64,000 nt of DNA, taken from Planctomycetota bacterium. Its GTDB lineage: Bacteria > Planctomycetota > JACOTG01 > JAJDCM01. The translations under genes were made by a program, and so were the position numbers. The notes under the pieces were generated by a model. The model did no database searches. It was not told the DNA's origin and saw only the letters and a program-made list of their open reading frames with translations. The stretch covers positions 5,215-69,214 of the forward strand of contig JAJDCM010000312.1 of assembly GCA_029260825.1 (NCBI GenBank), given 5' to 3'. Positions 988 to 61,387 of the stretch are shown here, piece after piece. Position 1 is the stretch's first letter, and every line of letters starts with the position of its first letter.

Positions 988-1387
988 GGCCAAAGACGGT
1001 GAGCCGTAAGCCGAGTTCTGTCCCTCCTCCTGCGAGGAGGTGTGACCATTTATCTAGGATCGCCGTTGCCGACGACCTCAAACGACCTACCCGGAAGTAG
1101 TCCCGGCGAACCAGGACAAAGAGACGGGCCGCCTCATCCTTCCCTATTTGGTCTTTCTCCGAGTGGGGTTTACCGAGCCAGGAGAGTCACCTCCCCTGCT
1201 GGTGAGCTCTTACCTCACCGTTTCACCCTTACTGAACCGAGTCAGGCCCGGACCAGCGGTCTACTTTCTGTTGCACTTTCCCTACCCTTACGGGCGGTGG
1301 GCGTTACCCACCACTCTGCCCTGTGGAGCTCGGACTTTCCTCAGGATGACAGGCACCCCGCGGCCACACCGTCACCGTCTTTGGCCG
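988..1387 (-). ncRNA. rnpB: RNase P RNA, bacterial type A
   Basis: The reverse complement contains the universal blocks GAGGAAAGTCCGAGCTCCACAGGGCAG, AGGGTGAAACGGTGAGGTAAGAGCTCACC, GGTAAACCCCACTCGGAGAAAGACCAAATAGG, CTAGATAAATGGTCAC and ACAGAACTCGGCTTACGG. The P1 helix forms between GGCCAAAGACGGTGA (5' end, about 1372-1386) and TCACCGTCTTTGGCC (3' end, about 988-1003). Confidence 0.93.
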
Positions 1388-12877: not shown

Positions 12878-12910
12878 AGCTAAAACTCCTCTTTCTCATC
12901 TCTTCCGCAA

Positions 12911-14614: not shown

Positions 14615-14615
14615 T

Positions 14616-15701: not shown

Positions 15702-15737
15702 CTTCAGCTCCCTCCTCGTCGTCGTATCCCTTGGCCC

Positions 15738-18454: not shown

Positions 18455-21076
18455 ATGCCCGAGCACGTGTTTTTCTTCGGTGGAGGCGAGGCGGAGGGTA
18501 CTGCGAAGGCCCGAGAAAACCTTGGCGGTAAGGGTGCCAATCTTGCCGAAATGACAAACCTCGGAATTCCCGTTCCGCCCGGTTTCACCATTTCAACCCC
18601 GGTTTGCAAGTACTTCACCGATCATGAGGGATCCTATCCCGACGGACTCGAAGCCGAGGTCGAGGCCACCATCAAGCGACTTGAAGGCGTGATGGGAGCC
18701 AAGTTCGGCGACAACGAGAATCCCCTGCTGGTTTCGGTTCGAAGCGGAGCCGCCGTTTCGATGCCCGGAATGATGGATACGGTCCTGAATCTTGGTCTGA
18801 ATGATGAGAGCGTTCAAGGACTCATCCGCAAGAGCGGCCAGGAGCGTTTCGCGTGGGACTCCTACCGGCGATTCGTCAATATGTTCGGTGACGTGGTCAT
18901 GGACGTCGATCACGAGCATTTTGAAACCATCCTGACCGGCCTCAAAAACGAGGTGGGAGCCACCCAGGACACCGAACTCGACACTCCCCATCTCCAGGAA
19001 CTCGTGAAGAGGTACAAATCCCTCTACAAGGAGAAGACGGGAGAGGAATTCCCCACCAATCCGATCGATCAGCTCTGGCGAGCCGTGGGTGCGGTATTCA
19101 AATCCTGGAATATCCCGCGGGCTATCAAATATCGCCAGCTCAACTCCATCACCGGCCTTCTCGGCACCGCCGTTAACGTCCAGGTGATGGTGTTTGGGAA
19201 CATGGGTAACACATCTGGAACCGGGGTTGCCTTCACTCGTAACCCCTCGGACGGCACCCAGGAGTTCTACGGCGAGTACCTGATGAACGCTCAGGGCGAA
19301 GACGTGGTGGCGGGAATCCGGACTCCCCGTCCCATCAAAGATCTCGCTGATGGCATGCCCAAGGTGTACGACGAGCTCATCGGCATCAAGAACCGACTCG
19401 AAAAACATTACCGGGACGTCCAGGACGTGGAGTTCACCATCCAGGAGGGAAAACTCTACATGCTTCAAACCAGGTCGGGGAAACGAACCGCGCAGGCCGC
19501 GGTGAAGATCGCCGTCGACATGGTGAAAGAAGGTTTGATCGACAAGAACACGGCCCTTCTTCGGGTTGACGCCGGGCTGCTGGACACCTTGCTCCACCCG
19601 GGTTTCGATCCGAAGGCGGAAAAAGAACTCCTCGCATCGGGTCTTCCCGCATCCCCGGGTGCGGCGACAGGAAAGATCGTCTTCAACGCCGATGACGCGG
19701 AACGTCTTGGAAACGAAGGCGAGGCCGTTCTGCTCGTTCGGAATGAAACCTCACCGGAAGACATCGGCGGCATGCATGCAGCCCGGGGCATTCTGACCGC
19801 AACAGGTGGAATGACGAGCCACGCGGCCGTGGTTGCACGAGGCATGGGGACTTGCTGCGTCGCTGGCTGCGGAAGCCTCCGGATCGACTACAAGAAGAAA
19901 ACCCTGATCGTCGGCGATCGCACGTTTAAAGAAGGTGATTTTCTATCCCTTGATGGATCTGCGGGTGAGGTCTATGTCGGGCAAGTTCCGACCGTCCCCC
20001 CGGCGCTCTCCGAGGACTTTGGCGAACTCATGGGCTGGGCCGATGATGCCCGGCGCCTCCGGGTGCGCGCCAATGCGGACACTCCTGAGGACGCTCGAAA
20101 AGCCCGAGAAAACGGAGCCGAGGGAATCGGTCTATGTCGCACCGAGCACATGTTCTTCGATGCGGATCGTATCGTCGCCATGCGGGAGATGATTCTTGCG
20201 AACAACCTGAAGGAGCGAGAAGCTGCCCTTGGCAAGCTCCTCCCCATGCAGGTGGAGGACTTCGCTGCCATCTTCGAAGCAATGGAAGGACTCCCGGTCA
20301 CCATCCGCCTCCTCGACCCGCCCCTTCACGAGTTCCTTCCTCATGAGGACTCATCTCAGCAAGAGATGGCAGACTCGATGGGCGTGAGCCTGCAGGTCGT
20401 CCAGGACAAGGTGCGTTCTCTTCATGAGTCGAACCCGATGCTTGGTCATCGTGGTTGCCGGCTGGGGGTTACCTATCCGGAAATCTACGAGATGCAGGCC
20501 AAGGCCATCATCGAAGCCGCTTGCCGGGTCCAGGAAAAGGGGATCAAGATCTTCCCGGAGATCATGATCCCGCTCATCGGCACCTCCCAGGAGTTCAACA
20601 TTCTTGCCACCCAGATCCGCAACGTGGCCGAGGCCATGTTGAAGGAGAAGGGAATCAAGCTCGACTATCTGGTTGGAACCATGATCGAGATTCCTCGAGC
20701 TGCCCTCACTGCAGCCGAGATCGCCGAGAATGCCGAGTTCTTCTCCTTTGGCACCAACGACCTGACTCAGCTCACCTATGGCTATAGCCGAGACGACATC
20801 AACCGGTTCCTTCCCGATTACCTCGACCAGAAGATCCTTCCTGAAGATCCGTTCCAGGTCATGGATCAAGCCGGGGTGGGAAAGCTGGTTTCGATCGCCG
20901 TAAAAGACGGGCGCTCCGGTCGACCCAACCTGAAAATCGGGATCTGCGGAGAGCACGGAGGAGATCCCAAGTCGGTGACCTTCTGTCACCACGAAGGACT
21001 CGACTACGTGAGTTGCTCCCCCTTCCGGGTTCCCATCGCAAGGCTGGCTGCCGCCCAGGCTCAGATCCAGTCCTAG
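18455..21076 (+). CDS. ppdK: Pyruvate, phosphate dikinase
   Basis: Full-length PPDK: GGKGANLAEM, the phospho-His region GGMTSHAAVVARGMG, and the PEP-utilizers C-terminal domain GLCRTEHMF and FFSFGTNDLTQ. The likely start is MPEHVFFFGGG at 18455. The ORF is open from 18425. Confidence 0.95.
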   Translation: MPEHVFFFGGGEAEGTAKARENLGGKGANLAEMTNLGIPVPPGFTISTPVCKYFTDHEGSYPDGLEAEVEATIKRLEGVMGAKFGDNENPLLVSVRSGAAVSMPGMMDTVLNLGLNDESVQGLIRKSGQERFAWDSYRRFVNMFGDVVMDVDHEHFETILTGLKNEVGATQDTELDTPHLQELVKRYKSLYKEKTGEEFPTNPIDQLWRAVGAVFKSWNIPRAIKYRQLNSITGLLGTAVNVQVMVFGNMGNTSGTGVAFTRNPSDGTQEFYGEYLMNAQGEDVVAGIRTPRPIKDLADGMPKVYDELIGIKNRLEKHYRDVQDVEFTIQEGKLYMLQTRSGKRTAQAAVKIAVDMVKEGLIDKNTALLRVDAGLLDTLLHPGFDPKAEKELLASGLPASPGAATGKIVFNADDAERLGNEGEAVLLVRNETSPEDIGGMHAARGILTATGGMTSHAAVVARGMGTCCVAGCGSLRIDYKKKTLIVGDRTFKEGDFLSLDGSAGEVYVGQVPTVPPALSEDFGELMGWADDARRLRVRANADTPEDARKARENGAEGIGLCRTEHMFFDADRIVAMREMILANNLKEREAALGKLLPMQVEDFAAIFEAMEGLPVTIRLLDPPLHEFLPHEDSSQQEMADSMGVSLQVVQDKVRSLHESNPMLGHRGCRLGVTYPEIYEMQAKAIIEAACRVQEKGIKIFPEIMIPLIGTSQEFNILATQIRNVAEAMLKEKGIKLDYLVGTMIEIPRAALTAAEIAENAEFFSFGTNDLTQLTYGYSRDDINRFLPDYLDQKILPEDPFQVMDQAGVGKLVSIAVKDGRSGRPNLKIGICGEHGGDPKSVTFCHHEGLDYVSCSPFRVPIARLAAAQAQIQS

Positions 21077-24808: not shown

Positions 24809-25429
24809 CTAGTCGATGGTGAGAACCTGCAGGATTTCGGACTCGCTGTCCTCACCCACTTCAAGTGTGTTCGGATCCATCTCAAAGTCATCACGAATGT
24901 TATAGCCCTTGAACGAGAGATCTGCATAAAGCACGTTCATGGTGTTGGGGTGATTGGGGCCGAATTCCCAATCGTCGGAAACAATGGCCTGGGATCCTAG
25001 CTTGGTCGATTTGAGCGGATAATTGCGCACATCCCGACCTGCATAGCTCGTCACCGTGGAATCCACCGAGTCGATATCCTCCAGGAGGAACTCCTTGGTG
25101 TCCGGATCAACGACATACGAGTTCTGATCCCCCGGGCAAAGATAGATCTTTGCATAACGCTCATTGTGCTCGATCTCGTGCTTGGCCCAGGGCTCCAGGA
25201 AAAAACGAATCCCGGAAGTTCGAGGGAACCTGTTGTCATGGCTACCTTTATACAGCTGTATCGAGGCACCGATCTCCTTCAGATTCTTCTGGCAGGCAAC
25301 CACATGGGCTCGATCCTGACCCCGAAAAAGGGTCGGACTCACGAGACCGATGATGAGAGCCATGATGGCAATGACCACCAGGATCTCGATCAGAGTAAAG
25401 CCGGATTGATTTAAGTCTTTATTTTTCAA
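24809..25429 (-). CDS. Prepilin-type N-terminal cleavage/methylation domain protein (GspG-like pseudopilin)
   Basis: Class III signal: MKNKDLNQSG|FTLIEILVVIAIMALIIGLV. Confidence 0.85.
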   Translation of the reverse strand: MKNKDLNQSGFTLIEILVVIAIMALIIGLVSPTLFRGQDRAHVVACQKNLKEIGASIQLYKGSHDNRFPRTSGIRFFLEPWAKHEIEHNERYAKIYLCPGDQNSYVVDPDTKEFLLEDIDSVDSTVTSYAGRDVRNYPLKSTKLGSQAIVSDDWEFGPNHPNTMNVLYADLSFKGYNIRDDFEMDPNTLEVGEDSESEILQVLTID

Positions 25430-25557: not shown

Positions 25558-26730
25558 TCACGAGAGACCAGCGTCCTTGCGAAGCTGGTCCGCAACGTCG
25601 GTTTGCTCCCATTTGAACTGGGGAAGCTCCCGGCCAAAATGGCCATGCCTTGCGGTCTCAAAATAGATCGGTCGTCGAAGCTCAAGCTTCTCGATGATCG
25701 CCCGGGGCGTCAGATCGAAGTGACGGTCAATCAGCTCGTTGATCTTGTCCTCGGGGATCTTGTTCGTGCCAAACGTGTCGACGAGGACACTAACCGGCTT
25801 TGCCACCCCGATTGCGTAGGCAACCTGGATCTCGCATCGATCGGCAAGCCCGGCTTTCACCACGTTCTTGGCAACCCATCTTGCGGCGTAGGCTGCACTT
25901 CGATCGACTTTGGTGGGGTCTTTTCCGGAGAATGCTCCTCCGCCATGGCGGGCCATTCCCCCGTAGGTATCCACGATAATCTTTCGTCCCGTGAGTCCGC
26001 AGTCTCCCGCCGGGCCTCCGACCACAAACCGGCCGGTAGGATTGATGTGATAAATCGTGTCGGCGTCGACGAGGTTGGCCGGTATGACGGCCAAAATGAC
26101 CTTCTCGAGAATATCCTTCGTCAAGGTTTCTTGGTCCACATCCTCGCTATGCTGGGTGGAAATAACCACCGTATGCACTCGTTTGGGGCGACCGTCGACA
26201 TACTCAACGGTAACCTGGGACTTGCCGTCAGGTCGAAGATAGGGAAGCTCACCCGTTTGCCGACAGACAGCCAGCCGCTCCACGAGGGAGTGAGAAAGAG
26301 AAATCGCAAGAGGCATGAGAGTCGGGGTTTCGTCACAAGCATAGCCGAACATCAGGCCCTGATCTCCGGCCCCCTGTTCCTTGTGCAAGCCCTCTCCCTC
26401 GGTCACTCCCTGAGAGATATCCGCCGACTGCTTGTCGATGGTGGAAATGACGGCGCAACTTTCATAGTCGAACCCCATGCCACCGCCGACGTAGCCGATT
26501 TTCTTCACCGTGGATCGAACCACCTCGGGGATGTCAATGTAGGCCGAGGTTGAGATTTCACCCGAGACAACCACCATCCCGGTCGTAACCAGAGTCTCGC
26601 AGGCGACGCGAGCGTGAGGATCCTCGGTAAAGATTGCATCGAGAACAGCGTCCGAAATCTGGTCAGCAACCTTGTCCGGATGTCCCATGGAGACGGACTC
26701 AGATGTGAACAACATCCGCTTCTGGCTCAT
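25558..26730 (-). CDS. metK: S-adenosylmethionine synthase
   Basis: [37 protein letters not shown] and [23 protein letters not shown]. Confidence 0.97.
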
Positions 26731-28088
26731 TCAGCTCGCTCCTTATCTTTGATTCGCGCCGACGTTTCTTGACTTGGTGGATAACAGGAAATGATTCGAG
26801 AGCCGATAATATCGAGATTCCGGAGACTGGCTCCTTTGTTTTGCTCGATGGTGGCTCTCGCGCGGCGCCCCATTGCCTCTCGGTCGTTGTCATTGGATAA
26901 CAGGTCGCCCACCGCAAGGGTGAGCTCATCCACACCACTCACGACTCGCACCGCATTTTCCTGGACGAGGACATCGACTGAATCCTGGAAATTGAAGGTG
27001 TGCGGCCCAAAAACCACCGCTTTTCCGAGTCCTGCGGGCTCCATCATGTTCTGCCCGCCGTGAGGAATGAGGCTGCCTCCGACAAATACGACGTCCGCAA
27101 GGCCGTAGAGTTTACCGAGTTCGCCTATCGTGTCAATGAGAATCACCGGGGCGTCACCACTCTCATTTCCGAGGTTCTTTCCGTCCTCAAGAGCGGTTCT
27201 TCGAACCACCGTGGCCCCTGCGTCTTGGAGGCTCATTTCGACTTCCGAAAGCCGCTCTGGATGCCTGGGCGCGACCAAGAGACGCAGACGTGGGTGCTGC
27301 TCTTTGAGCTTCTTGTAACTCTTGAAGAGAATCATCTCCTCCGGTGGATGTGTGCTTCCCCCGATCAAGACCACGTCACCGGGCCGAATCCCGATGTCCT
27401 TTGCCAGGAGATCACGATGGGCCTCATCCTGCTCCGTTTCCACGTTGTCGAACTTCATGGTTCCGGTCACGTGGATCCGATCCGCCGGCACTCCCAGGTC
27501 AATCAGACGCTGGGCGTATTGCTCGTTCTGAACGCAGGAGGCGACGACCCGATTCCACGGCTGGGGAAGAAAACGCTTCCAGAGCCGGTAGCCCTTGAAG
27601 GATCGCTCGGAAATTCGTCCGTTGATGAGGCCCACCGGGATGCCGTGGCGACGGGTCACCAGGAGGAAGTTGGGCCAGATCTCGAGTTCGATCAGGATCA
27701 CTGCGGTCGGTTTGATCCGGCGGAGCACCCGACGAATCGCAAAACTCAAATCGACCGGATAGTAGAAGACGTGCTTTCCCGGGTACCGCTCGGTTGCCAC
27801 CCCATGACCGGTCTGAGTCGTGGTCGAAAGGGCAACATCCCACTCCGGATACCGACGCGAGAATGCCTCGATGAAGCGATTCGCTCCGAGGATCTCCCCC
27901 ACGGAAACCCCGTGAATCCAGAGACAGGGAGCGCTCGACTCGCGGATGGGAACAAACCCGAAGCGTTGCCAGAGGCCGGCTCGAAATCGGGGCTCCGAAA
28001 CCATGCGATAAACAACAAGTGGAAGCAAGACGACGATCGCAATCAGGTACATCAGGTCATAGAAGGAATGAACGATCATGTTGATCAT
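26727..28088 (-). CDS. waaA: 3-deoxy-D-manno-octulosonic acid (Kdo) transferase
   Basis: N-terminal membrane anchor, WIHGVSVGE, and a C-terminal GT domain ([31 protein letters not shown]). The ORF is open to 28400 but that part overlaps the secA 3' end. Candidate starts are 28118, 28088 and 28079. Confidence 0.85.
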
Positions 28089-28122
28089 CGATTCCCACCG
28101 ACCGAGCGGAGGAAGCATCGAG

Positions 28123-28509
28123 TCAGCTAGCGATCTTGCCGTGACACTTCTTGTACTTCTTGCCGCTTCCGCAGGGGCAAACATCGTTTCGGCCGACCTT
28201 GGGCTCACTCTTGCGGATCGGTTGAGCCTTTGCCTGCTCTCCTCCTCGCTGTGAGCCGGCGATGGCAGCCTCTTTTTGTTTTGCCGACCTTTCAAACGCC
28301 ATTTCCTGCTGATGAACAAATTGTGACGGATTCCACAGCCTCTCCGGAGGCGGCGTTGCACGCCTTCCACCACCACCCGGTGCTTCTGGCTGTTCTTCAA
28401 TTCGAAGACGGAAGATGAGGTTCGTCACCTCGTCCCGCAAAACGTCGACCATTTCCTCAAAGAGCTGGTATCCCTCGGCCTTGTAGGCAAGCTTGGGATC
28501 CTTCTGAGC
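28123..28509 (-). CDS. secA: SecA C-terminal continuation (in frame with 28510..30759, downstream of an internal TAG)
   Basis: [28 protein letters not shown]... ending in the zinc-binding SEC-C motif [15 protein letters not shown]. It is in the same frame as the upstream secA segment. Confidence 0.85.
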
Positions 28510-30759
28510 CTAGGCTCTCATTCCGATGCCGCTCTTGAGATGATCCATCGTATACAGATGATCTTTCCACTTTCCATCCAGGACACGTAAAAGCAAGTAG
28601 CTCTCGACCCGGCGCATGTCTTCGTCGCCAACGATCTTTTCTCGTTCATCGTAAGCGGCGTTGATTCTCTCCATGACGAGACCATGAAGATCGTCCTGGT
28701 TCTTGCCGGTTAGCTCCTCCTCGGTCATGGTGAGCTGGAATCGATGGCGAATGGTCTCGACAAGGCCTGGAACATCCGTTTCCTTCGTGACCGGATCCGG
28801 CGTCAGGTACCGATCCAGGAGCGAGGCAACCACCGATTCAATCATGTCGAAGATCATCTCCCGGAGGTTCTTGCCATCGAGGATGTCCTGCCTCTGGCCG
28901 TAGATGATCTTTCGCTGTTCGTTGTTGACCGCGTCGTATTCGAGAAGACGCTTTCGAATCTCGAAGTTGTGCTCTTCGACCTTCTTCTGCGCCCTTTGCA
29001 CCGCCTTTGTGACCATGGGCGACTGGATGTCCTGGCCTTCCTGGAGACCAAGCCGCTTCAGGATACCCGCGACCATGTCGTTGGCGAAGACCCGCATCAG
29101 GTCGTCTTCGAGGGAAAGAAAGAAACGAGTCGAACCCGGATCTCCCTGACGCCCGGCACGCCCCTTCAACTGGTTGTCGATCCGGCGCGCCTCATGACGC
29201 TCCGTCCCGATGATATGAAGCCCGCCCTTTGCAGGGACACCTTTCCCAAGAACGATGTCGGTTCCACGACCGGCCATATTCGTCGCAATGGTCACCGAAC
29301 TCGGTTGTCCCGCGTTCGCAATGATCGATGCTTCTCGCTCGTGATGCTTGGCGTTCAGCACCTCGTGCTTGATCCCTCGGACATTCAAGAGCTTGGAAAT
29401 CAGTTCGGAGTTTTCAATCGAGGTTGTTCCGACCAGGATCGGACGGCCCTGATTCTGGATGTCCTCCACTTCGATGCAGAGTGCGTCCCATTTCTCCTTC
29501 GAGGAACCGTAAATGACATCGTTGTGATCAAGACGGGTCAGAGGTCGGTTCGTCGGAACCTGAACGACTTCAAGCTTGTAGATCCGATAGAATTCGGATG
29601 CCTCGGTGATGGCGGTTCCGGTCATACCTCCGAGCTTGTCGAACAGTCGGAAGTAGTTCTGGAACGTGATCGTGGCGAGAGTCTGGTTCTCCTCTTTGAT
29701 CTTGAGCTTTTCCTTGGCCTCGATCGCTTGATGCAGGCCATCGCTCCAGCGCCTTCCATCCATGAGACGCCCGGTGAACTCGTCAACAATGACGATTTCG
29801 CCATCCTTGACCACGTACTCCTTGTCTTTCTTGAAGAGACCGTGAGCCCGGAGAGACTGCTCGATACAGTGGGGCCAATCCATGTTCTCGCCGGTGTAGA
29901 AGTCCTCCACCCCTGCCAGCTCCTGGGCTCGCTCGATGCCATTCTCGGTGAGCATCGCCGAGGATTCTTTTTCCTTGATCTCGTAGTCATCACCCTTGAC
30001 CAGCTTTCGGGCCACTCGATCCGCTTCGTAATACTTGCTGGTCGACTCCTCGGCAGGACCGGAGATGATGAGGGGGGTTCGAGCCTCGTCGATCAAGATC
30101 GAGTCGACCTCATCGATGATCGCGTAATAAAGTCGTTTTTGGCACTGATCTTCTGCCCGGGACTTCATGTTGTCCCGCAGGTAGTCAAAACCAAACTCGT
30201 TGTTCGTCCCGTAGGTGATGTCGCTCTGGTAGTGCGTCAAACGCTCTTGCGGACCCATCTGACTCTGGATCGCCCCCACCGACATTCCCAGGGCCTCATA
30301 AACCGGAGCCATCCACTGACAGTCACGGCGAGCGAGATAATCGTTCACCGTAACCACGAAGACACCCCGGGAAAGGAGAGCATTCAGATAGGCGGCCAGG
30401 GTTGCCACGAGAGTCTTTCCCTCGCCGGTCACCATCTCGGCGATCTTCCCCTGATGCAAGACGATGCCGCCCAGGATCTGAACGTCAAAATGACGCATCT
30501 TCAGCACCCGGCGGGATGCCTCCCGCACACAGGCAAAGGCCTCAGGGAGCAACCCATCAAGAGTCTCGCCGTTGCCGAGACGGCGACGAAACTCCGCCGT
30601 TTTGTCCCGAAGTTGCTCATCCGACAGATCGAACATCTGGTCTTCCAGCGCATTCGTCTGGTCAACCAGGGGGTACAGTTCCTTCAGAACTCGATCGTTA
30701 CGAGATCCAAAGACTTTGACAAACCCACGTCCGAAGTTCTCACTCAGCTTGGTAAGCAT
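28510..30759 (-). CDS. secA: Preprotein translocase ATPase SecA, N-terminal about 749 codons ending at an in-frame TAG (28510-28512)
   Basis: VFGSRNDRVLKEL, Walker A MVTGEGKTLVATL, DEVDSILIDEARTPLIISG, TNMAGRGTDI and LKGRAGRQGDPGSTRFFLSLEDDL. The likely start is MLTKL at 30759. The ORF is open to 30798. Confidence 0.93.
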   Translation of the reverse strand: MLTKLSENFGRGFVKVFGSRNDRVLKELYPLVDQTNALEDQMFDLSDEQLRDKTAEFRRRLGNGETLDGLLPEAFACVREASRRVLKMRHFDVQILGGIVLHQGKIAEMVTGEGKTLVATLAAYLNALLSRGVFVVTVNDYLARRDCQWMAPVYEALGMSVGAIQSQMGPQERLTHYQSDITYGTNNEFGFDYLRDNMKSRAEDQCQKRLYYAIIDEVDSILIDEARTPLIISGPAEESTSKYYEADRVARKLVKGDDYEIKEKESSAMLTENGIERAQELAGVEDFYTGENMDWPHCIEQSLRAHGLFKKDKEYVVKDGEIVIVDEFTGRLMDGRRWSDGLHQAIEAKEKLKIKEENQTLATITFQNYFRLFDKLGGMTGTAITEASEFYRIYKLEVVQVPTNRPLTRLDHNDVIYGSSKEKWDALCIEVEDIQNQGRPILVGTTSIENSELISKLLNVRGIKHEVLNAKHHEREASIIANAGQPSSVTIATNMAGRGTDIVLGKGVPAKGGLHIIGTERHEARRIDNQLKGRAGRQGDPGSTRFFLSLEDDLMRVFANDMVAGILKRLGLQEGQDIQSPMVTKAVQRAQKKVEEHNFEIRKRLLEYDAVNNEQRKIIYGQRQDILDGKNLREMIFDMIESVVASLLDRYLTPDPVTKETDVPGLVETIRHRFQLTMTEEELTGKNQDDLHGLVMERINAAYDEREKIVGDEDMRRVESYLLLRVLDGKWKDHLYTMDHLKSGIGMRA

Positions 30760-31016
30760 TGCCTTTATCCTTGTCGCTAGCGCGCATGATGAATCCACTT
30801 CACCCCGACAAATCCCAGGTTAGCGAGGGCGATGAGGGCATGTCAGCCAAGGCCCGGGAGGGCCTCTGGAAGACTTATTTATATATGTTGTCTTTCGGCC
30901 GGAAGAGAAAAAAACCTTCCTTCCCTACTACAAACCCGGTTCGAACTACAGGTGGCAACTGAGATCCGGGCCAGTCTCGACCCCATTACTCCAATCGTCT
31001 CCATGAGGCGAGAGCT

Positions 31017-31871: not shown

Positions 31872-32840
31872 TCATCCCCAGGGCGTTGGCTCCGGCATGA
31901 CCAAGGTTCCAATGAGCGACCGGATCTGCTCGATCCCCTCATGCTCAAGGAGTCGCTCCAGTTCCGTAAGGATCCGAATCATTGCCTGCGGGTCAAGGAA
32001 GTTCGCCGTCCCCACCTGAACCGCACTCGCTCCGGCGACCAGGAACTCGAGCACGTCTTCAGCGCACGAAATGCCCCCTACCCCGATGATCGGGACCCTG
32101 CAATGGGTGCTGACAAGGGATACGAGTCGCAGAGCGACCGGCTTGATCACGGGCCCGGATAACCCTCCGTAGCCCGATCCAAGGATGGGTCTTCGCTTCT
32201 TCCAATCAACGGCAAGACCAGGGATGGTGTTGATGAGGGTGATCCCGTCGGCCCCCGCCTCTTCCGCCGCCGACGCAATTGCGACCACGTCGTTTGCTTC
32301 CGGAGTGAGCTTTGCCCAGACGGGAAAGGGTGAGACCTTTTTTACGGCGCGAACGATGTCCCCGACGATGTCCGGGCGTTTGGCATAGTCCATTCCGGTT
32401 CGCGAGACATTGGGGCACGAGAGATTGAGCTCAAAAGCGGATATCCCCACGACTCCCGAAAGACCTTCGGCGAGCCTCGCGAATTCGTCCGGACGGGCCC
32501 CGGCAATGCTTGCGACCACGCAGGTGTCGCTCTCACGGTAGGCATCTGCATACTTGGCACAAAAACCGACCATCCCCGGATTCTGCAGGCCGATTGAGTT
32601 CAAGAGTCCGGATTGAACCTCGACCGTCCGGGGAGGTGGATTGCCTTTTCGAGGGGTTGGGGTGACCGTCTTCAGGACGATGCCACCAAGATCCGACCGG
32701 GAGAAGAACGGGTCCCCCACGTCTCCCATCCCGAAAGTACCCGAGGCAGCCAACACCGGATTCTTGAGAGAAAGAGGTCCGACCTGAACCTCAAGGTTCG
32801 GTTTCCGAACTTCTCTTTGCAGGTCCTCGGTCGGTGTCAT
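31872..32840 (-). CDS. pyrD: Dihydroorotate dehydrogenase (class 1 catalytic subunit)
   Basis: LKNPVLAASGTFG, GLQNPG, ELNLSCPN, GLSGPVIKPVALR and IIGVGGI. ATG 32840 lies just after the upstream gene's TAG. The ORF is open to 32897. Confidence 0.92.
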   Translation of the reverse strand: MTPTEDLQREVRKPNLEVQVGPLSLKNPVLAASGTFGMGDVGDPFFSRSDLGGIVLKTVTPTPRKGNPPPRTVEVQSGLLNSIGLQNPGMVGFCAKYADAYRESDTCVVASIAGARPDEFARLAEGLSGVVGISAFELNLSCPNVSRTGMDYAKRPDIVGDIVRAVKKVSPFPVWAKLTPEANDVVAIASAAEEAGADGITLINTIPGLAVDWKKRRPILGSGYGGLSGPVIKPVALRLVSLVSTHCRVPIIGVGGISCAEDVLEFLVAGASAVQVGTANFLDPQAMIRILTELERLLEHEGIEQIRSLIGTLVMPEPTPWG

Positions 32841-32841
32841 G

Positions 32842-33204
32842 CTAGGCCTCGAGGCCCTCCTCCTCGATCCGTTTGCACTCGATGCAAAGTCTGGCATGGG
32901 GAATGGCCTGGAGACGGGGTTTTGCGATCGCCGATTTGCAGCCCTCGCAGGTGCCGAACTGGCCTTCTCGAATCCGATCCAGGGCCTCCATGATCTCGCG
33001 CACTTCTTCGTGCTCGCTTTCGATCAACCCGAGGGTGAAGTCCTGCTCGTAGCTATCAGACCCGGCGTCCGCCATGTGATCGACGGAGAAATCTTGCTTC
33101 CCGTCACGAAGGGCTTCGCTCTCCATCTGACTGGCAAGGCCAAGGAGAGTCCTCCGCCGCTCCTGCAGGAGCTTCTCGTATTTTTTCAGTTCCGATGCTT
33201 TCAT
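32842..33204 (-). CDS. DksA/TraR family C4-type zinc-finger protein
   Basis: Coiled-coil N-terminus and CEGCKSAIAKPRLQAIPHARLCIECK. Confidence 0.85.
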   Translation of the reverse strand: MKASELKKYEKLLQERRRTLLGLASQMESEALRDGKQDFSVDHMADAGSDSYEQDFTLGLIESEHEEVREIMEALDRIREGQFGTCEGCKSAIAKPRLQAIPHARLCIECKRIEEEGLEA

Positions 33205-33447: not shown

Positions 33448-34485
33448 CTAGAACTGGGCCGGTTGCGTTCCGAGGTGGTGAAGGAGGCTGGCGGTTCCAA
33501 GGCCCTTGGTGCCACCACCAAAGCTCTTCACGATCATCCCCAGAATCGGAGGGTCATTCACCCGGTTTCCGGACCCGCTGAAGAATCCTTCGGCGCCGTC
33601 GACCGTCATCCAACCCGTCTGGACCGAAGGCGGTCCAAACTCGTGCCTGTCTCCGCCGAGGTTCTTCACCACGTTTGAGATCTGGTCCAGAGTCCCGGAC
33701 CACCAGCAATTGAAAACGAAGTCACGAGAGAACTTTTCTTCCCGGTTGTTGAAGATCAGGAACTCAGGATTCACCGTCAGGGTCGGGTTGCCTGGCGAGA
33801 ACAAGACCAGAGTATCCGTGGTCTTGGGGCCCTGCTGGAAGAAGCTCGAAACGATCAGTCGATCGGGGAAGGCTGCGTACTCGGAGCCGTCAAAGTCCAT
33901 CAGCCCATTCGCAGTTCCACCGTTGGCCACGGAATCGGTGAGGCAATGCCCTCCTCCCGTCTGATCGGGACAGGGAACCAGCGGGTCTTGCCCCGGCAGT
34001 GCCTGGAAGGCAATCGCCGGTACCTGCCACACGAAGCCGAGCTTTGAATCAAAGACGACCTCATCACCGATCAGGTAGTCATAATCGATCCGCTCCTCGG
34101 TTTCCGGGTCCTCGGCCACCACGTACACATACCCAAACGAACCTTCGGGATTGTGCTGAGAAGCAAGAACGGTGTGGGTGTCTCCCGGGGTGAGGAACTG
34201 AGTGCGGTTGAACTCGAGGCAGTCGACACCATCAATATAGTAGTAGTGAATCTGAACGTCGCCCTGCCGGAAACTATTGGGAGAAACCCGACGTGAGGTG
34301 TTGACATTGGTGACGGTCAGGATGGAGAGCTTTCCCGGGCGCGCATCAAAGAACGGAAAGATGAGCACGCTACCGGGCTCATATTCCCGAGGTTGTGCTT
34401 GCACACTCATCGCCGGAACCAGGTATGTACCTAGCATGAGGACAAGAGCAGCAAACAGCTTCGCAACTTTGAAACGCGGATTCAC
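33448..34485 (-). CDS. Secreted protein, unrecognised family, paralog A (the divergent member)
   Basis: GTG start with GGAGA upstream. Signal peptide ...VPAMSVQA|QP. Shares GSVLIFPFFD, LTVTNVN, FRQGDVQIHYYY, LTPGDT, DYLIGD, MDFDGSEYAAFPDRL, FNNREEKFSRDFVFNC and a terminal Phe with the three genes at 35097-38541. Confidence 0.8.
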   Translation of the reverse strand: MNPRFKVAKLFAALVLMLGTYLVPAMSVQAQPREYEPGSVLIFPFFDARPGKLSILTVTNVNTSRRVSPNSFRQGDVQIHYYYIDGVDCLEFNRTQFLTPGDTHTVLASQHNPEGSFGYVYVVAEDPETEERIDYDYLIGDEVVFDSKLGFVWQVPAIAFQALPGQDPLVPCPDQTGGGHCLTDSVANGGTANGLMDFDGSEYAAFPDRLIVSSFFQQGPKTTDTLVLFSPGNPTLTVNPEFLIFNNREEKFSRDFVFNCWWSGTLDQISNVVKNLGGDRHEFGPPSVQTGWMTVDGAEGFFSGSGNRVNDPPILGMIVKSFGGGTKGLGTASLLHHLGTQPAQF

Positions 34486-35029
34486 CTTGGCGGATCTCCA
34501 TGGGCTCCCGTGAATGGGTTTCTTGGACCCAGCTCACCAGAACCGTTTTCACTTCGAAAACCAAACGGACGAAGTAATGAGTGGAGAGGAGTACAAAAGG
34601 CTCAGAAAATCGGCCATCTCCTGACCAATCGTTACACGATCGGGAGATCGACCTTCCGCGAGGACATGGGTTTGAAACACCCTACGACACCCAACAAACA
34701 TCCTCGAACTGAAGGCCGAGGCACTGCGGGTACGTCACACTTCTTTTACTCGTCCACGGTGAAGAGACCTTGGTGGACACCCCTGGATTAGCAAAGGGTG
34801 TACCCGGTGCTCCAGAGTTGCCGAGATTGTGTTCATCTCCGTGCCAACCCGGGAAGAAATCGAAGGTTAGCTCTTCATTTCTTTTCGACCTCCGAGGAAG
34901 GAGACGTGATTCGACTCGAGGCGCCGTGGAATTTCGTGAACAGCAATGACACGGACTTGCGCAAAAGCCCCCTGGCAGTGGTTCCTTAGCCGCCGGTGCA
35001 ATTTGGCAACATCACGAGTGGACGTTCAT

Positions 35030-35063
35030 AAAAAAAAGCGGAGGCCCAAAAAGGACCTCCGCT
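35030..35063 (-). terminator. Intrinsic terminator after paralog B
   Basis: On the minus strand: agcggagg-(11-nt loop)-cctccgct followed by tttttttt. It sits 34 nt downstream of the stop at 35097. Confidence 0.8.
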
Positions 35064-35096
35064 TGAAGCTAGTCAGTGAACTAGCAATCTCGCGAC

Positions 35097-36089
35097 TTAG
35101 AAGAGGCGCGGGATCGAAGCAGTCTTGGTTCCGCTGTACTGAAGCTCACGACCGGCGACAAAGCTGTCTGCGCCGATGGCTGCGGTGTGAGAGAACACAC
35201 CGAGGATGCCGTGATTTGCTTGCGAGCGAAGTCGGAGCCAACCATAGTTGATGCCGAGAAGCTCAGCCGTGTCTGCATCCGTGGCCAAGTTGGCCTGGGT
35301 GACAGCCTGGGTGATCTCGCCGAGGGTTCCCATGAAGTAGCAGTCGAACGGGAAGGTTCGGGAGAAGCGTCGCTCGTTGTTGTTCCAGCCCAAAACGGAC
35401 AGGTTGGTGTCTTCTGGCTGAGTACTCATGAGGAAGATCATGTTGCCAAAAGTGACGCCAGGACGATCATCGTCGGTGCCTTCACCGAAGAAATGGTCGA
35501 GATACAGGGTCTCAGGGAATTCGTTGTATTCCATGCCATCGAAATCGATCTGGCCGTTGTCCATATCGAGAATCGGGCGACCACAATCGTCATTCATGGT
35601 CGATTGAGTGGTGTCGGTGAAGAGCGCCTCGAATGCATAAGGCGTGTAGGCCCACTGGAAGTCAAACTCGGAGTTGACAACAATGGCGCTACCGATCAGG
35701 AAATCGAACTGGGTCGGGACGAGTTGCTCAGGATCGCGAGCCTCGACAACCAGGTATCCCTTCTCAAAGTTGGGATTGTGGCCACGGGCCAAGACGGTGA
35801 TGGTATCGGCAGGGGTAAGATCTTCCTGCGTATCCGTTTCTGCGCAAGTCTCACTGAAATAGATGTAGTGGACCTGAATGTCACCTTGGCGGAAACCGTT
35901 GTCACACGAGTTCTCATCTTCGTTCGTGTTGGTGACGGTGAGCAAGGTGTTGTTGCCTGCCGTCGAGTTGTAAAGCGGGAAGATGAGAAGGCTAGCCGGC
36001 TGCGAATGTAGCGGCTGAGCCATTGCGGGCGCACTTAGAACGCCCAGAGCCAGCACACAGGCCAGCACTCCAACATACTTCTTGGACAT
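35097..36089 (-). CDS. Secreted protein, unrecognised family, paralog B
   Basis: ATG 36089 is preceded by AGGAGG. Signal peptide MSKKYVGVLACVLALGVLSAPAMA|QP. Conserved blocks are listed in the finding. Ends ...IPRLF. The ORF is open to 36137. Confidence 0.8.
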   Translation of the reverse strand: MSKKYVGVLACVLALGVLSAPAMAQPLHSQPASLLIFPLYNSTAGNNTLLTVTNTNEDENSCDNGFRQGDIQVHYIYFSETCAETDTQEDLTPADTITVLARGHNPNFEKGYLVVEARDPEQLVPTQFDFLIGSAIVVNSEFDFQWAYTPYAFEALFTDTTQSTMNDDCGRPILDMDNGQIDFDGMEYNEFPETLYLDHFFGEGTDDDRPGVTFGNMIFLMSTQPEDTNLSVLGWNNNERRFSRTFPFDCYFMGTLGEITQAVTQANLATDADTAELLGINYGWLRLRSQANHGILGVFSHTAAIGADSFVAGRELQYSGTKTASIPRLF

Positions 36090-36370
36090 GAAAAATACCC
36101 TCCTTCGAAAGGATTCCATCGAAACTCTTCTTAGCAACTGGGGTGAAGTATCCCCGATACATGTAAATCAAATGCAGTAGGTAGAGAGGTCCACCACATG
36201 GCGAATGTGGGGGATCTTGGGAGGGAGGCCTAAGTGATTTAGCACCGCCTGAAAACTCGAAGCTCCAGATGACATCCGAGTCTAGACCCCTACTGAGGAA
36301 GCGTCATTCTACTCTTCCTCGCTCTTCCTGTAAAGTCAAAAAATCATACAATCTCAAAAACCACCTATCT

Positions 36371-37372
36371 TTAGAAGCGCGGCAGGCAAACAACTCGTCG
36401 CCCTGAGAACTGAAGCTCGCGTCCCGCAGTGAAGGGAACGCCATTAATCATGGTGGTCTCCTTGAAGACCCCGAGCATGCCCTCGGTAGGAACGGCGAAA
36501 TCAAGCCTGAACCAACCCGTCTCAATTCCCCCGAGCTCCCCGTCGTCACTGTTCGTTCCAAGTGACGTCTGGGTCGCGGCCCCGGTGAGATCCTGCAGGG
36601 AACCAACCCGGTGGCACCCGACGTGGAAATCTCGAGAGAATCTCCTCTCATTATTGTTGTATCCGGTCATGAAGACGTTTCGGATCAACGGATCGGTGGT
36701 CGAATCCGTCGACATCAGATACAAGACGTTGTCAAAACTCACGTTCCCGGCGTCTCCCGATCCAAAGAACTTATCGAGATAAAGACGATCAGGAAAAGCG
36801 GAGTACTCGGCACCATCGAAATCGATCTTGTCGAAATCAGCCAGGTTAGCCGGGGTGTCCGTGAAGATTCGCAAGCAGTCGTCGGCGTCACCTGCCGTAA
36901 CCAGGGCTTCGAAGCCATAGGGCGTGTAGGCCCACTGGAAGTCGAATTCACTGTTGACAACAATGGCGCTACCGATCAAGAAATCGAAATCGATCGGGAA
37001 GTTGGTCTCCGGATCTCGAGCCTCGGCTACAAGATATCCAACTTCGAAGTTGGGATTGTGGCCTCGAGCCAGAACCGACTCGGTGTCGGCAGGAGTGAGG
37101 TCTTCGTCCGTATCGGAGGCCTGACAGGTCTCACCGTCGGTGTAGACATAATGAACCTGAACATCGCCATTACGAAAACCGTTCCCGCAGGTTTGCTCAT
37201 CAGCGTTGACGTTGGTCACGGTGATGATGGTGTTATTTCCCGCCGATGAATCGAAAAGCGGGAAGATAAGGATGCTCGCTGGCTTTGCGTGCACAGGCTG
37301 AGCCTGTGCCGGGGCATTGATCAAGCCCACGGTCAACACAGCGGCGACCCCTAGAATTCCAATTACCCTCAT
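36371..37372 (-). CDS. Secreted protein, unrecognised family, paralog C
   Basis: ATG 37372 is preceded by GAGGGGAG. Signal peptide MRVIGILGVAAVLTVGLINAPAQA|QP. Ends ...LPRF. The ORF is open to 37465. Confidence 0.8.
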   Translation of the reverse strand: MRVIGILGVAAVLTVGLINAPAQAQPVHAKPASILIFPLFDSSAGNNTIITVTNVNADEQTCGNGFRNGDVQVHYVYTDGETCQASDTDEDLTPADTESVLARGHNPNFEVGYLVAEARDPETNFPIDFDFLIGSAIVVNSEFDFQWAYTPYGFEALVTAGDADDCLRIFTDTPANLADFDKIDFDGAEYSAFPDRLYLDKFFGSGDAGNVSFDNVLYLMSTDSTTDPLIRNVFMTGYNNNERRFSRDFHVGCHRVGSLQDLTGAATQTSLGTNSDDGELGGIETGWFRLDFAVPTEGMLGVFKETTMINGVPFTAGRELQFSGRRVVCLPRF

Positions 37373-37425
37373 TCTTCTACTCCCCTCGCAGAGATAAAAC
37401 CTCGTGAATGAACTTAGAAGTCCAA

Positions 37426-37456
37426 GGAGGAAGGTCGAGAGGCTCGGCCTTCCTCC
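37426..37456. other. GC-rich hairpin in the spacer between paralogs D and C
   Basis: ggaggaagg-t-cgag / ctcg-g-ccttcctcc. There is no clear U-tract, so this may be an intercistronic stabiliser or a weak terminator. Confidence 0.35.
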
Positions 37457-37527
37457 TCGGGACAAAAGCTTTTCTTCAAGAGGGCGATACTGCGTGCCCT
37501 TTGGGAGATCTCTCCCGGCGACTCACC

Positions 37528-38541
37528 TTAGAAAGGGAACCGCGGAAGAGTGGTTACTCGGGAGCCTTCATATTGAAGCTCGCGCCCGGCAGTGTGAACT
37601 TCAGCACCAATCGAACTCTGTTGGACGAAGACACCGAGAACGCCGGTGCTCGCACCGAGAGCCTCGAGTTGGAGCCAACCGGTGTTGACACCGTTCAGCT
37701 CGCTATCGTCACCGTCCACATCAAGATTGGCTTGGGTGACAGCCTGGGTCAACTGGCCAAGGGAAGCCTCGGTCCAGCAGTTAAAGCTAAAGGTTCGCGA
37801 GAAGCGACGCTCATTGTTGTTCCAGCCAAGGAGACGCATGTTGGTCACACTCGGGGAGGTCGCCATCAGGTAAATACTATTACTGAAAGTGACACCAGGA
37901 GCGGCGGCCGGAGTGCCTTCGCCGAAGAACTGGTCGAGGTAGAGCAGGTCTGGAAACGTGCTGTACTCGAAACCGTCAAAATCGACGGTGGACGGGGTGA
38001 AGGCGTCGGTATCGGTGAAGAAACGTCCGCAATCGTCCATGCCTCGACCGGAGTCGGCCGCGGCAGGATTCCCCTCGAAAGAGTAGGGCGTGTAGGCCCA
38101 CTCGAAATCGAATTCGGAATTGACGATGTGAGCACTTCCGATCATCTCATCGTAATCGATGGGAAAACCACTCTCGGGATCGCGAGCCTCGACCGTGAGG
38201 AATCCTTCCTCTTGGTTCGGGTTGTGACCGCGAGCCAATACGACGATTTGATCTGCAGGGGTGAGATCTTCATCGAGGTTGGACTCGGCCCAGGTGGTAC
38301 CGTCGGTGTAGACGAAGTGCAATCGGACATCGCCCTGGCGAAAACCGTTTCCGCAAGAGCCTTCGTCTTGGTTGGTATTGGTGACGCAAATAACCGTATT
38401 GTTGCCACTCGTTGAATTGAACAGGGGGTAAATCAGAAAACTACCCGGTTGGGAGTGAGTCGGCTGAGCCATTACCGGTGCCGGCAACATGGCCGCAACC
38501 GCGAGGACGGCAACCATCCCCGGCAACACAAATTTCGTCAT
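37528..38541 (-). CDS. Secreted protein, unrecognised family, paralog D
   Basis: ATG 38541 is preceded by AAGGAGGAG. Signal peptide MTKFVLPGMVAVLAVAAMLPAPVMA|QP. Ends ...LPRFPF. The ORF is open to 38667. Confidence 0.8.
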   Translation of the reverse strand: MTKFVLPGMVAVLAVAAMLPAPVMAQPTHSQPGSFLIYPLFNSTSGNNTVICVTNTNQDEGSCGNGFRQGDVRLHFVYTDGTTWAESNLDEDLTPADQIVVLARGHNPNQEEGFLTVEARDPESGFPIDYDEMIGSAHIVNSEFDFEWAYTPYSFEGNPAAADSGRGMDDCGRFFTDTDAFTPSTVDFDGFEYSTFPDLLYLDQFFGEGTPAAAPGVTFSNSIYLMATSPSVTNMRLLGWNNNERRFSRTFSFNCWTEASLGQLTQAVTQANLDVDGDDSELNGVNTGWLQLEALGASTGVLGVFVQQSSIGAEVHTAGRELQYEGSRVTTLPRFPF

Positions 38542-38715
38542 TGAATCTCCTCCTTGACGTCTTGAGTCGGATCCGAGATCTCGGTCATCGAGACCCCAGC
38601 CGAAAAATTTCACTGTCATACGTTTGTTCGGTCCCATTCTTTTGCGTTCCGCCAGCGGCGGCCCCACCTCCTTCCGTAGCTCCTTATTCCTCCTGTGACC
38701 GGGATGCTCCCGGCC

Positions 38716-43091: not shown

Positions 43092-43094
43092 CGA

Positions 43095-45140
<2,046 letters not shown>

Positions 45141-51899: not shown

Positions 51900-51974
51900 T
51901 CGGGGCGGCCGGATTCGAACCGGCGACCTCCTGGTCCCAAACCAGGTGCGCTAACCAGACTGTGCTACGCCCCG
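51900..51974 (-). tRNA. tRNA-Pro (anticodon UGG)
   Basis: Reverse complement: CGGGGCG-TA-GCAC-AGTCTGGTTA-GCGC-A-CCTGG-TTTGGGA-CCAGG-AGGTC-GCCGG-TTCGAAT-CCGGC-CGCCCCG-A. It folds as a cloverleaf with one A-C mismatch in the D stem. CCA is not encoded. Confidence 0.92.
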
Positions 51975-55486: not shown

Positions 55487-55557
55487 CGTCCTACCTTATT
55501 TAGCGAAACCGTTCATTCCCGATCGACTTGAACACACGGAGAACTTCTGGGTCCGAA

Positions 55558-57264: not shown

Positions 57265-57379
57265 GGGCTAACGCGTGCCTCGCATTCGAGGGTGGGCCGA
57301 ATTTCTCCGGTCGCACCTCAATTATTCTTCAACTAAAAACCTGATCCACAAACCTCTCACCGTCTTCAAATGAATGGGT

Positions 57380-60353: not shown

Positions 60354-60385
60354 CGTCTCTTTCTTCCCGAGCGAACGCCCGATGC

Positions 60386-61366: not shown

Positions 61367-61387
61367 AGCTGAATAATCCCGATCGAG

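What the first reader, a model, noticed from the sequence alone, without database searches (positions are those of the whole stretch)
28123..30759. secA is one continuous reading frame interrupted by a single in-frame TAG at a conserved tyrosine codon
The minus-strand sequence reads ...[47 protein letters not shown]... The TAG is at 28510-28512.

This aligns residue for residue with the conserved SecA segment [30 protein letters not shown] of E. coli. The stop therefore sits exactly where the conserved Tyr belongs, and TAY to TAG is a single-base change.

The downstream 128 codons stay in frame. They keep full SecA character, including the terminal zinc-binding [15 protein letters not shown].

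SecA is essential, and truncation here would remove part of the helical scaffold domain.

TAG is used as an ordinary terminator elsewhere in this window (927-929, ppdK at 21074-21076, the DksA/TraR gene at 32842-32844, and the YezD-like ORF). Genome-wide TAG reassignment is therefore unlikely.

The remaining explanations are:
- a sequencing or assembly error;
- a very recent nonsense allele in a population or MAG consensus;
- a split but functional SecA;
- site-specific readthrough or suppression.
Basis: partly seen in the sequence, partly recalled or inferred. Interest (0 to 1): 0.7.

Follow-up and report, generated by a model that had tools for sequence, protein, structure and literature searches.

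The report
Lone premature stop in secA
An otherwise normal copy of the essential protein-export motor gene secA carries one premature stop codon where a key tyrosine belongs; it is most likely a single-base sequencing or assembly error (or a very recent mutation), not a new way of reading the genetic code.

Summary
On the minus strand, secA runs from 30759 to 28123 as one frame, broken by a single TAG at 28512-28510 (codon 750). The stop aligns with E. coli SecA Tyr794, the tip of the two-helix finger. That position is Tyr in 110 of 119 homologous proteins, and 87 of 92 related loci have TAT or TAC there. None has a stop. The nearest relative (73% identity, same gene order) has TAT.

The 128 codons after the stop have not decayed. 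dN/dS against that relative is 0.13 downstream and 0.115 upstream, and the SEC-C zinc motif is intact. Pfam's SecA_SW profile lacks only position 164.

TAG is a true terminator of uvrB, ppdK, yebC, dksA and the arginine decarboxylase gene. No other gene in the 64 kb looks broken. There is no suppressor tRNA, no RNA structure, and no restart signal. The same species occurs nowhere else in the collections searched, and no reads are available.

The G of the TAG completes a perfect 12-bp palindrome, GAGCCTAGGCTC. This is a roughly 1% coincidence and fits a templated single-base change.

Verdict: an ordinary secA with an isolated single-base nonsense change. It is most likely an artefact or a non-representative allele. 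Interest is low.

The parts
28513..30759 (-). secA, N-terminal 749 codons (NBD1/DEAD motor, preprotein cross-linking domain, NBD2, wing/scaffold up to the first helix of the two-helix finger)
   Evidence: PF07517 at residues 15-390, PF01043 at 239-347, PF21090, and PF07516 profile positions 2-163 ending at residue 749. The database holds this 749-aa product as P0001.
28510..28512 (-). In-frame TAG at codon 750, equivalent to E. coli SecA Tyr794 (tip of the two-helix finger)
   Evidence: The nearest relative has TAT. Among 92 related loci the codon is TAT in 50, TAC in 37 and Leu in 5, with no stop.
28126..28509 (-). secA, C-terminal 128 codons in the same frame (second helix of the two-helix finger, end of the scaffold, linker, zinc-binding tail)
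   Evidence: PF07516 profile positions 165-199 at residues 1-35; dN/dS is 0.13 against L001, compared with 0.115 upstream.
28135..28191 (-). SEC-C zinc-binding motif [19 protein letters not shown]
   Evidence: PF02810, profile positions 1-19 of 19, E = 8.6e-11. 87% identical to the relative over the last 23 aligned codons.
28123..28125 (-). Natural secA terminator, TGA
   Evidence: Homologues end within a few residues of this point.
28506..28517 (.). Perfect 12-bp palindrome GAGCCTAGGCTC, completed by the G of the TAG. With the ancestral TAT or TAC it would be a quasi-palindrome with one mismatch.
   Evidence: one of 26 perfect palindromes of 12 bp or more in the window. Only 3 of 394 other Tyr codons would produce one after a TAY-to-TAG change; the relative has GGGCC TA TGCCC, with the same single mismatch.
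28450..28452 (-). First in-frame start codon after the TAG (ATG, 20 codons downstream), the only candidate restart for a separate C-terminal piece
   Evidence: ORF 28452-28123, 109 aa. GAGGAA directly abuts the ATG, and there is no promoter-like site on this strand.

Best explanation
This is the organism's ordinary, single, orthologous secA, from a Planctomycetota bacterium of the class Brocadiia. In the deposited sequence one base of the Tyr codon at the two-helix-finger tip (TAT or TAC) reads G, giving TAG. Most likely this change does not represent the functional gene. It would be a substitution introduced during amplification, sequencing or consensus building, or at most a very recent nonsense allele caught in the assembly. 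It may have arisen as a templated, quasi-palindrome-correcting change, because it turns GAGCC-TA-(T/C)GCTC into the perfect palindrome GAGCCTAGGCTC. In the living cell SecA would be made as one protein of about 877 residues, with Tyr at this position. Shown: the stop, its position, the intact tail, the absence of other damage, and normal use of TAG as a stop. Inferred: that the base is wrong or non-representative, and how the change arose.
For: - **Single difference.** One base separates TAG from the Tyr codon of the nearest relative, which has TAT. None of 92 related loci has a stop there.
- **Intact tail.** The 128 downstream codons have no further stop or frameshift. dN/dS is 0.13 downstream and 0.115 upstream. 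The SEC-C motif is complete.
- **Main copy of the gene.** The gene sits in the same order as in the relative: dksA, DHODH, response regulator, secA, kdtA, metK.
- **TAG is a normal stop here.** It terminates uvrB, ppdK, yebC, the arginine decarboxylase gene and dksA at their natural ends. It ends 15 of 59 greedily chosen ORFs.
- **No other damage.** About 45 Pfam-annotated genes in the 64 kb have full-length domain matches. This is one isolated substitution, not a decaying or error-ridden region.
- **No recoding or restart signals.** The RNA fold z-score is -0.38. The only tRNA in the window is tRNA-Pro. There is no promoter or terminator near the stop on the coding strand.
- **Palindrome.** The new base completes a 12-bp palindrome. 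About 1% of Tyr codons would do so. It also creates CTAG, a tetranucleotide about 6-fold under-represented in the window (42 observed, 243 expected). Quasi-palindrome template switching is a documented mutational mechanism (PMC7202029, listed).
Against: - No reads, coverage or quality values are available, so the error itself is not demonstrated.
- Clean 64-kb assemblies rarely carry substitution errors.
- The palindrome argument is post hoc, and the stem is short: 5 bp around a 2-nt centre, or 4 bp around a 4-nt loop.
- The rest of the genome could not be examined. A suppressor tRNA or a second secA cannot be excluded.
- Position 794 tolerates other residues. Homologues carry F, M, I or L there. 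Y794C keeps activity (PMC3518217). A leaky stop here would therefore be less harmful than at most sites.
Confidence: 0.7

Rival explanations
1. The TAG is a genuine allele in living cells. It is tolerated because enough full-length SecA is still made, through leaky near-cognate readthrough of UAG or a suppressor tRNA encoded elsewhere, or because a second SecA encoded elsewhere in the genome covers the function.
For: - The surrounding assembly is otherwise clean.
- The tail is intact, as expected if it is still translated or if the mutation is very young.
- The position tolerates F, M, I or L in nature and Cys in vitro, so almost any inserted residue could work.
- Quasi-palindrome template switching also operates in vivo.
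Against: - There is no tRNA with a CUA anticodon in the window.
- TAG ends about a quarter of the ORFs, including uvrB directly upstream of uvrC in the same frame. Efficient suppression would be costly.
- No relative shows a stop at this site.
- This secA is the syntenic main copy.
- E. coli secA amber alleles need a suppressor to be viable (my recollection of Oliver and Beckwith 1982, not checked here).
- A mostly truncated essential protein should not become the majority allele.
Confidence: 0.2
2. The stop is programmed recoding at the fingertip codon. This could be insertion of pyrrolysine or another residue at UAG. It could also be a 'stop-hop', in which peptidyl-tRNA-Ala leaves GCC and re-pairs on the GCU beyond the UAG, giving SecA without the Tyr and without one Ala.
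For: - Matched Ala codons, GCC and GCU, flank the stop. This is the arrangement that produces stop-hops in synthetic E. coli constructs (PMC5009743).
- The stop falls on a functionally special residue.
Against: - The flanking Ala codons follow simply from the conserved A-Y-A peptide.
- No natural stop-hop is known.
- There is no RNA structure downstream of the stop.
- The window holds no pylT-like tRNA and no other in-frame TAG.
- TAG is not avoided as a terminator.
- All 92 related loci encode Tyr or Leu at this position.
- A paper search for pyrrolysine together with Planctomycetes listed nothing whose title or abstract makes that link.
Confidence: 0.04
3. SecA is naturally split at the finger tip into a 749-residue motor and a separately translated C-terminal piece, and the two pieces reassemble.
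For: The break lies in a loop between two helices, where split proteins can sometimes reassemble. Both pieces are intact.
Against: - The first in-frame start after the stop is 20 codons downstream. A separate piece would therefore lose the invariant [10 protein letters not shown] segment of the second finger helix.
- There is no usable ribosome-binding spacing and no promoter.
- No relative is split at this point.
- Every truncated SecA in the structure list (765 residues or more) extends beyond the aligned stop position, about residue 744 in the 841-residue B. subtilis chain. This is my inference from those lengths.
Confidence: 0.02

Closest known systems
Bacterial SecA (E. coli SecA, 901 aa; B. 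subtilis SecA in PDB 1tf2, 1m6n and 3iqy)
   Same: It has all the SecA domains in the canonical order: PF07517, PF01043, PF21090, PF07516 and PF02810. It is 52% identical to E. coli SecA across the window protein. It matches the solved SecA structures at E = 1e-40 to 1e-45 over the C-terminal third. It sits in the same gene order as its nearest relative.
   Different: The deposited sequence has TAG where E. coli has Tyr794. As annotated, the product stops at residue 749, and the finger's second helix and the zinc tail are left untranslated.
Amber (UAG) nonsense alleles of essential genes, and 'internal stop' pseudogene calls in metagenome-assembled genomes
   Same: A single-base change turns a sense codon into TAG, and everything else in the gene is intact.
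   Different: Whether the change is present in the cells or only in the record cannot be decided without reads.
Quasi-palindrome-associated template-switch mutations (E. coli and yeast; PMC7202029, PMC3820800)
   Same: The change makes an imperfect inverted repeat perfect, turning 5 of 6 pairs into a 12-bp palindrome.
   Different: The documented hotspots that I recall (not checked here) have longer arms. Here the arms are only 5 bp, so the link is suggestive only, at about a 1% coincidence.
Synthetic 'stop-hops' in E. coli (matched codons flanking a stop; reviewed in PMC5009743)
   Same: GCC-UAG-GCU has matched Ala codons on both sides of the stop.
   Different: There is no evidence of selection for it. 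The flanking codons are explained by the conserved A-Y-A peptide. No natural case is known.

Membership tests
SecA preprotein translocase ATPase | DEAD-like motor domain NBD1 and second P-loop domain NBD2 | tested here: met
   PF07517 with E = 2e-126 at residues 15-390; PF21090 with E = 4.5e-76.
SecA preprotein translocase ATPase | Preprotein cross-linking domain inserted in NBD1 | tested here: met
   PF01043, profile positions 2-110 of 110, at residues 239-347.
SecA preprotein translocase ATPase | Helical scaffold/wing domain with the two-helix finger and a bulky hydrophobic residue at its tip (E. coli Tyr794) | tested here: inconclusive
   PF07516 is covered at profile positions 2-163 and 165-199 across the stop. 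The tip codon itself is TAG in the record.
SecA preprotein translocase ATPase | C-terminal zinc-binding SEC-C motif (present in many SecA proteins, not all) | tested here: met
   PF02810, profile positions 1-19 of 19, in the downstream segment and in frame.
SecA preprotein translocase ATPase | One uninterrupted reading frame giving a protein of about 850-950 residues | tested here: not met
   As deposited, the frame has one TAG at codon 750. All the other 119 top homologues are 828-963 residues long.
Genome-wide reassignment of TAG to a sense codon | TAG is absent or rare as a terminator, and in-frame TAGs occur in many conserved genes | tested here: not met
   15 of 59 ORFs end in TAG. uvrB, ppdK, yebC, the arginine decarboxylase gene and dksA end in TAG at their natural ends. 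secA is the only gene with an internal TAG.
Pyrrolysine decoding | pylT (tRNA-CUA) together with pylS and pylBCD in the genome | not testable with these tools
   None is present in the 64-kb window: the only tRNA is tRNA-Pro, and no Pfam annotation suggests any of these genes. The rest of the genome is not available.
Pyrrolysine decoding | The UAG is conserved at the same site in homologues, sometimes with a downstream stem-loop | tested here: not met
   No stop at this site in 92 related loci. Fold z-score -0.38.
Programmed stop-codon bypass (stop-hop) | Matched take-off and landing codons flank the stop | tested here: met
   GCC TAG GCT. The match is expected anyway from the conserved A-Y-A peptide.
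Programmed stop-codon bypass (stop-hop) | Conservation of the arrangement in relatives, or stimulatory signals | tested here: not met
   All relatives have a sense codon at the site. No structure was found.

The most novel reading that the evidence does not exclude
The TAG is genuine and is decoded at the tip of the SecA two-helix finger of an essential, single-copy secA. Decoding would be by amber suppression or near-cognate readthrough, or by a natural GCC-UAG-GCU stop-hop. The stop-hop would be the first natural example, and would yield a finger tip two residues shorter.
Probability: 0.05. Interest if true: 0.65.

Novelty: already known. Interest (0 to 1): 0.18.

Why it matters
If the call is an error or a stray allele, it matters only for annotation. 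The gene should be annotated as an intact secA or flagged as 'internal stop, low-quality position'. It should not be counted as a missing essential gene or as evidence for an alternative genetic code.

If the stop were real and decoded, an essential housekeeping gene would depend on readthrough or bypass at the residue proposed to contact the translocating polypeptide. That would bear on both recoding biology and the SecA mechanism. Nothing found here points that way.

Tried and rejected
- **Source contig.** I looked up the 749-aa product to find its contig and sample. It is not on record.
- **Metagenome contigs.** I scanned for the peptide context with TAN at the site. All 12 hits come from unrelated lineages and carry TAC or TAT. 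The same species was not found.
- **GTDB genomes.** I scanned with the N-terminal fragment. The best hit is 63% identical, and the window's genome is absent. A second secA, a tRNA-CUA and pyl genes in the same genome therefore could not be searched for.
- **Genome-wide TAG reassignment.** Rejected, because uvrB, ppdK, yebC, dksA and the arginine decarboxylase gene all end in TAG.
- **Second in-frame TAG.** The junction at 43097-43095 looked like a second case. It is the true uvrB stop, followed in the same frame by the uvrC start.
- **Readthrough or PYLIS-like structure.** None; the fold is no better than shuffled sequence.
- **Internal promoter or terminator for a split gene.** None on the coding strand.
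- **Error-prone assembly.** No frameshifted or truncated gene turned up among the Pfam-annotated ORFs.
- **Illumina GGC/GGT-type systematic error.** I recalled this motif and compared it by eye. The local context does not match, so I make no claim.
- **Literature.** A search for pyrrolysine together with Planctomycetes listed 8 of 14 papers, and none links the two in its title or abstract.
- **C-terminal fragment search.** I ran no further search on the C-terminal fragment alone, because fragments would be buried among full-length SecA hits.
Full report
**1. The observation**

The minus strand of the window carries a secA gene from ATG at 30759 to TGA at 28125-28123. Its sequence reads ...ATG AGA GCC TAG GCT CAG AAG GAT CCC..., with the TAG at 28512-28510. 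Translation gives 749 residues, one stop, and 128 more codons in the same frame. These end in ...[22 protein letters not shown]. The mechanical ORF list shows the two pieces as 28510-30798 and 28123-28452.

In an alignment with the 119 best database homologues, the column under the stop is Tyr in 110, Phe in 5, Met in 3 and Ile in 1. It lies inside the near-invariant LRxYAQxDPKxxYK block. A pairwise alignment with E. coli K-12 SecA places the stop on Tyr794, in the segment RQGIHLRGY794A795QKDPK. The literature describes this residue as the conserved tyrosine at the tip of the two-helix finger. That finger inserts into SecY and contacts the translocating chain (PMC3518217; PMC3101351).

Pfam shows how clean the break is. 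The SecA_SW profile is matched at positions 2-163 by the upstream piece and at 165-199 by the downstream piece, so only position 164 is missing. The SEC-C zinc motif is complete.

**2. Which gene and which organism**

The database holds the window's own 749-residue product as a singleton: one member, on one contig of 75,285 bp. The next best hit, P0002, is only 73% identical and is a full-length protein of 877 residues. All other top hits are SecA proteins of 828-963 residues from Planctomycetota, many labelled Brocadiia or Brocadiales.

The P0002 contig has the same gene order as the window: dksA/traR, dihydroorotate dehydrogenase, response regulator, secA, kdtA, metK, and a prepilin-type N-methyl protein. 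The window's gene is therefore the orthologous main secA of its lineage, not a spare paralogue.

No sequence of the same species exists in any collection I could search:
- The exact-product look-up found nothing.
- A degenerate DNA pattern across the site hit 12 metagenome contigs. All are from unrelated lineages and all carry TAC or TAT.
- The GTDB scan gave at best 63% identity.

**3. Is the tail still a gene?**

I made a codon alignment with the nearest relative. Upstream of the stop (749 codons) dN/dS is 0.115 and amino-acid identity is 75%. Downstream (123 aligned codons) dN/dS is 0.130 and identity is 65%, rising to 87% over the last 23 aligned codons, which hold the zinc motif. There is no second stop and no frameshift. 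The tail has been under the same purifying selection as the rest of the gene for essentially all of the divergence time. Whatever produced the TAG is either very recent or not in the cell at all.

**4. Is TAG read differently in this genome?**

No. I re-scanned the window with only TAA and TGA counted as stops. This produced just two junctions where long coding segments meet across a TAG.
- One is secA.
- The other, at 43097-43095, is the end of uvrB, whose UVR motif lies at residues 733-765 of 788. One codon later, in the same frame, comes the ATG of uvrC, with its GIY-YIG domain at residues 22-96. These are two genuine genes.

TAG also ends other genes at their natural ends:
- ppdK, with a profile match to 292/293 at residue 880 of 883;
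- yebC;
- the pyruvoyl arginine decarboxylase gene, with a profile match to 161/161 at residue 221 of 226;
- dksA/traR.

TAG ends 15 of 59 greedily chosen ORFs. The only tRNA in the window is tRNA-Pro(TGG).

**5. Signals for readthrough, bypass or a split gene**

The 141 nt around and after the stop fold no better than shuffled sequence (z = -0.38). There is no promoter-like or terminator-like site on the coding strand near the stop.

The first in-frame start codon after the TAG is the ATG 20 codons downstream. A separately made C-terminal piece would therefore lack [19 protein letters not shown], the conserved second helix of the finger.

The stop is flanked by GCC and GCU. This is formally the 'matched codons flank a stop' arrangement that gives stop-hops in synthetic constructs, but no natural case is known (PMC5009743). 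The flanking alanines are explained by the conserved A-Y-A peptide. None of the 92 related loci has a stop at this site: 50 have TAT, 37 have TAC and 5 have Leu codons. Nothing supports a programmed event.

**6. Quality of the surrounding sequence**

I ran Pfam over most ORFs in the window. The annotated genes include rpoD, dnaG, ksgA, a type IV pilus/T2SS cluster, ppdK, yebC, rpsI, rplM, metK, kdtA, pyrD, uvrB, uvrC, purD, folE and the nuo operon. The conserved genes among them have end-to-end domain matches, and none looks frameshifted or truncated. The window has no N. The secA TAG is therefore an isolated substitution in an otherwise clean 64 kb.

**7. A detail that may explain the change**

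The G of the TAG completes a perfect 12-bp palindrome, GAGCCTAGGCTC, at 28506-28517. With TAT or TAC the same stretch would be a quasi-palindrome with one mismatch. The nearest relative shows exactly that arrangement: GGGCC TA TGCCC.

Only 3 of 394 other Tyr codons in the long genes of the window would yield a palindrome of 12 bp or more after a TAY-to-TAG change. Only 0.5% of window bases lie in such palindromes. Changes that perfect an imperfect inverted repeat are the signature of template switching by a polymerase, which is documented in vivo (PMC7202029, PMC3820800). I infer that the same could happen during in-vitro amplification.

The change also creates CTAG, a tetranucleotide about six-fold under-represented in the window (42 observed against 243 expected). 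That fits a new or artificial base better than a long-standing one. This argument is post hoc and the arms are short, so I give it modest weight.

**8. Interpretation**

SecA is essential. My recollection, not tested here, is that E. coli secA amber alleles are viable only with a suppressor. A product ending at residue 749 lacks the second finger helix, the end of the scaffold and the zinc tail. By my count from the alignment, the stop corresponds to about residue 744 of the 841-residue B. subtilis chain. Every truncated SecA in that structure list is 765 residues or longer and so extends beyond it. A majority allele that truncates the only syntenic secA is therefore hard to reconcile with a living population.

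- **Best explanation (about 0.7).** The record carries a wrong or non-representative base, and the cell makes a normal SecA of about 877 residues with Tyr at the finger tip.
- **Main rival (about 0.2).** The allele is real and is rescued by leaky readthrough, a suppressor tRNA or a second SecA elsewhere. The position tolerates F, M, I and L in nature and Cys in vitro, which makes this less absurd than at most sites.
- **Programmed recoding or stop-hop (about 0.04) and a split SecA (about 0.02).** These have no positive support.

**9. Comparison with known systems, and novelty**

The gene meets the SecA family criteria, except that the deposited frame is interrupted. The phenomenon, an isolated internal stop in an essential gene of a metagenome-derived contig, is a known kind of event. 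It is not a new system.

**10. Verdict**

Interest is low (0.18). The deciding experiment is to inspect the reads at 28510. I could not do this here.

Noticed in passing
window 43089-43097 (-): The uvrB stop (TAG at 43097-43095) is followed by one codon and then the uvrC ATG (43091-43089), in the same frame. With TAG left open the two would read as a single ORF of 1,424 codons. Both are complete, separate genes by Pfam.
   Followed up: yes
window 33448-38667 (-): Four tandem paralogous genes of 345, 346, 364 and 379 aa. They are 35-56% identical to one another and have no Pfam match. The one read in full (33448-34485) has a hydrophobic, signal-peptide-like N-terminus. The relative's contig has genes of similar size without Pfam hits (335 and 333 aa in L001). 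Function unknown.
   Followed up: partly
whole window: The tetranucleotide CTAG is strongly under-represented: 42 observed against about 243 expected from base composition. Perfect palindromes of 12 bp or more are somewhat more frequent than random expectation (26 against about 16).
   Followed up: partly
window 991-1379 (-): A bacterial class A RNase P RNA (306 bits, full-length model match). It is overlapped by spurious mechanical ORFs such as 1042-1623 and 1148-1399 on the + strand.
   Followed up: no
window 26727-28400 (-): The 557-aa mechanical ORF that overlaps the secA tail in another frame is an over-extended kdtA/waaA ORF. Translated from 28085 (452 aa), it matches the Kdo-transferase domain from residue 38. 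The relative's kdtA is 474 aa and starts at the secA stop.
   Followed up: partly
window 28744-30780 (+): A 678-aa antisense 'shadow' ORF lies opposite secA. It was not scanned against any protein family, and I treated it as a by-product of the secA codon pattern.
   Followed up: no
window 10092-17420 (-): A cluster of three T2SSE-family ATPase genes (560 aa, 361 aa PilT-like, and 577 aa), a T2SSF/PilC-like gene and a HAMP histidine kinase gene. It is probably a type IV pilus module. A prepilin-type N-methyl protein gene lies at 24809-25429.
   Followed up: no
window 53960-63809 (-): A respiratory complex I (nuo) operon, with Pfam matches typical of NuoD, NuoH, a 326-aa ferredoxin-type (NuoI-like) protein, NuoJ, NuoK, NuoL (716 aa), NuoM and NuoN. 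All appear full length. tRNA-Pro(TGG) lies at 51900-51974.
   Followed up: no
window 32842-32897 (-): The end of dksA/traR (stop TAG at 32844-32842) overlaps the longest pyrD ORF (31872-32897). The relative has a 4-nt overlap and a 313-aa PyrD, so the real pyrD start is probably downstream of 32897.
   Followed up: partly
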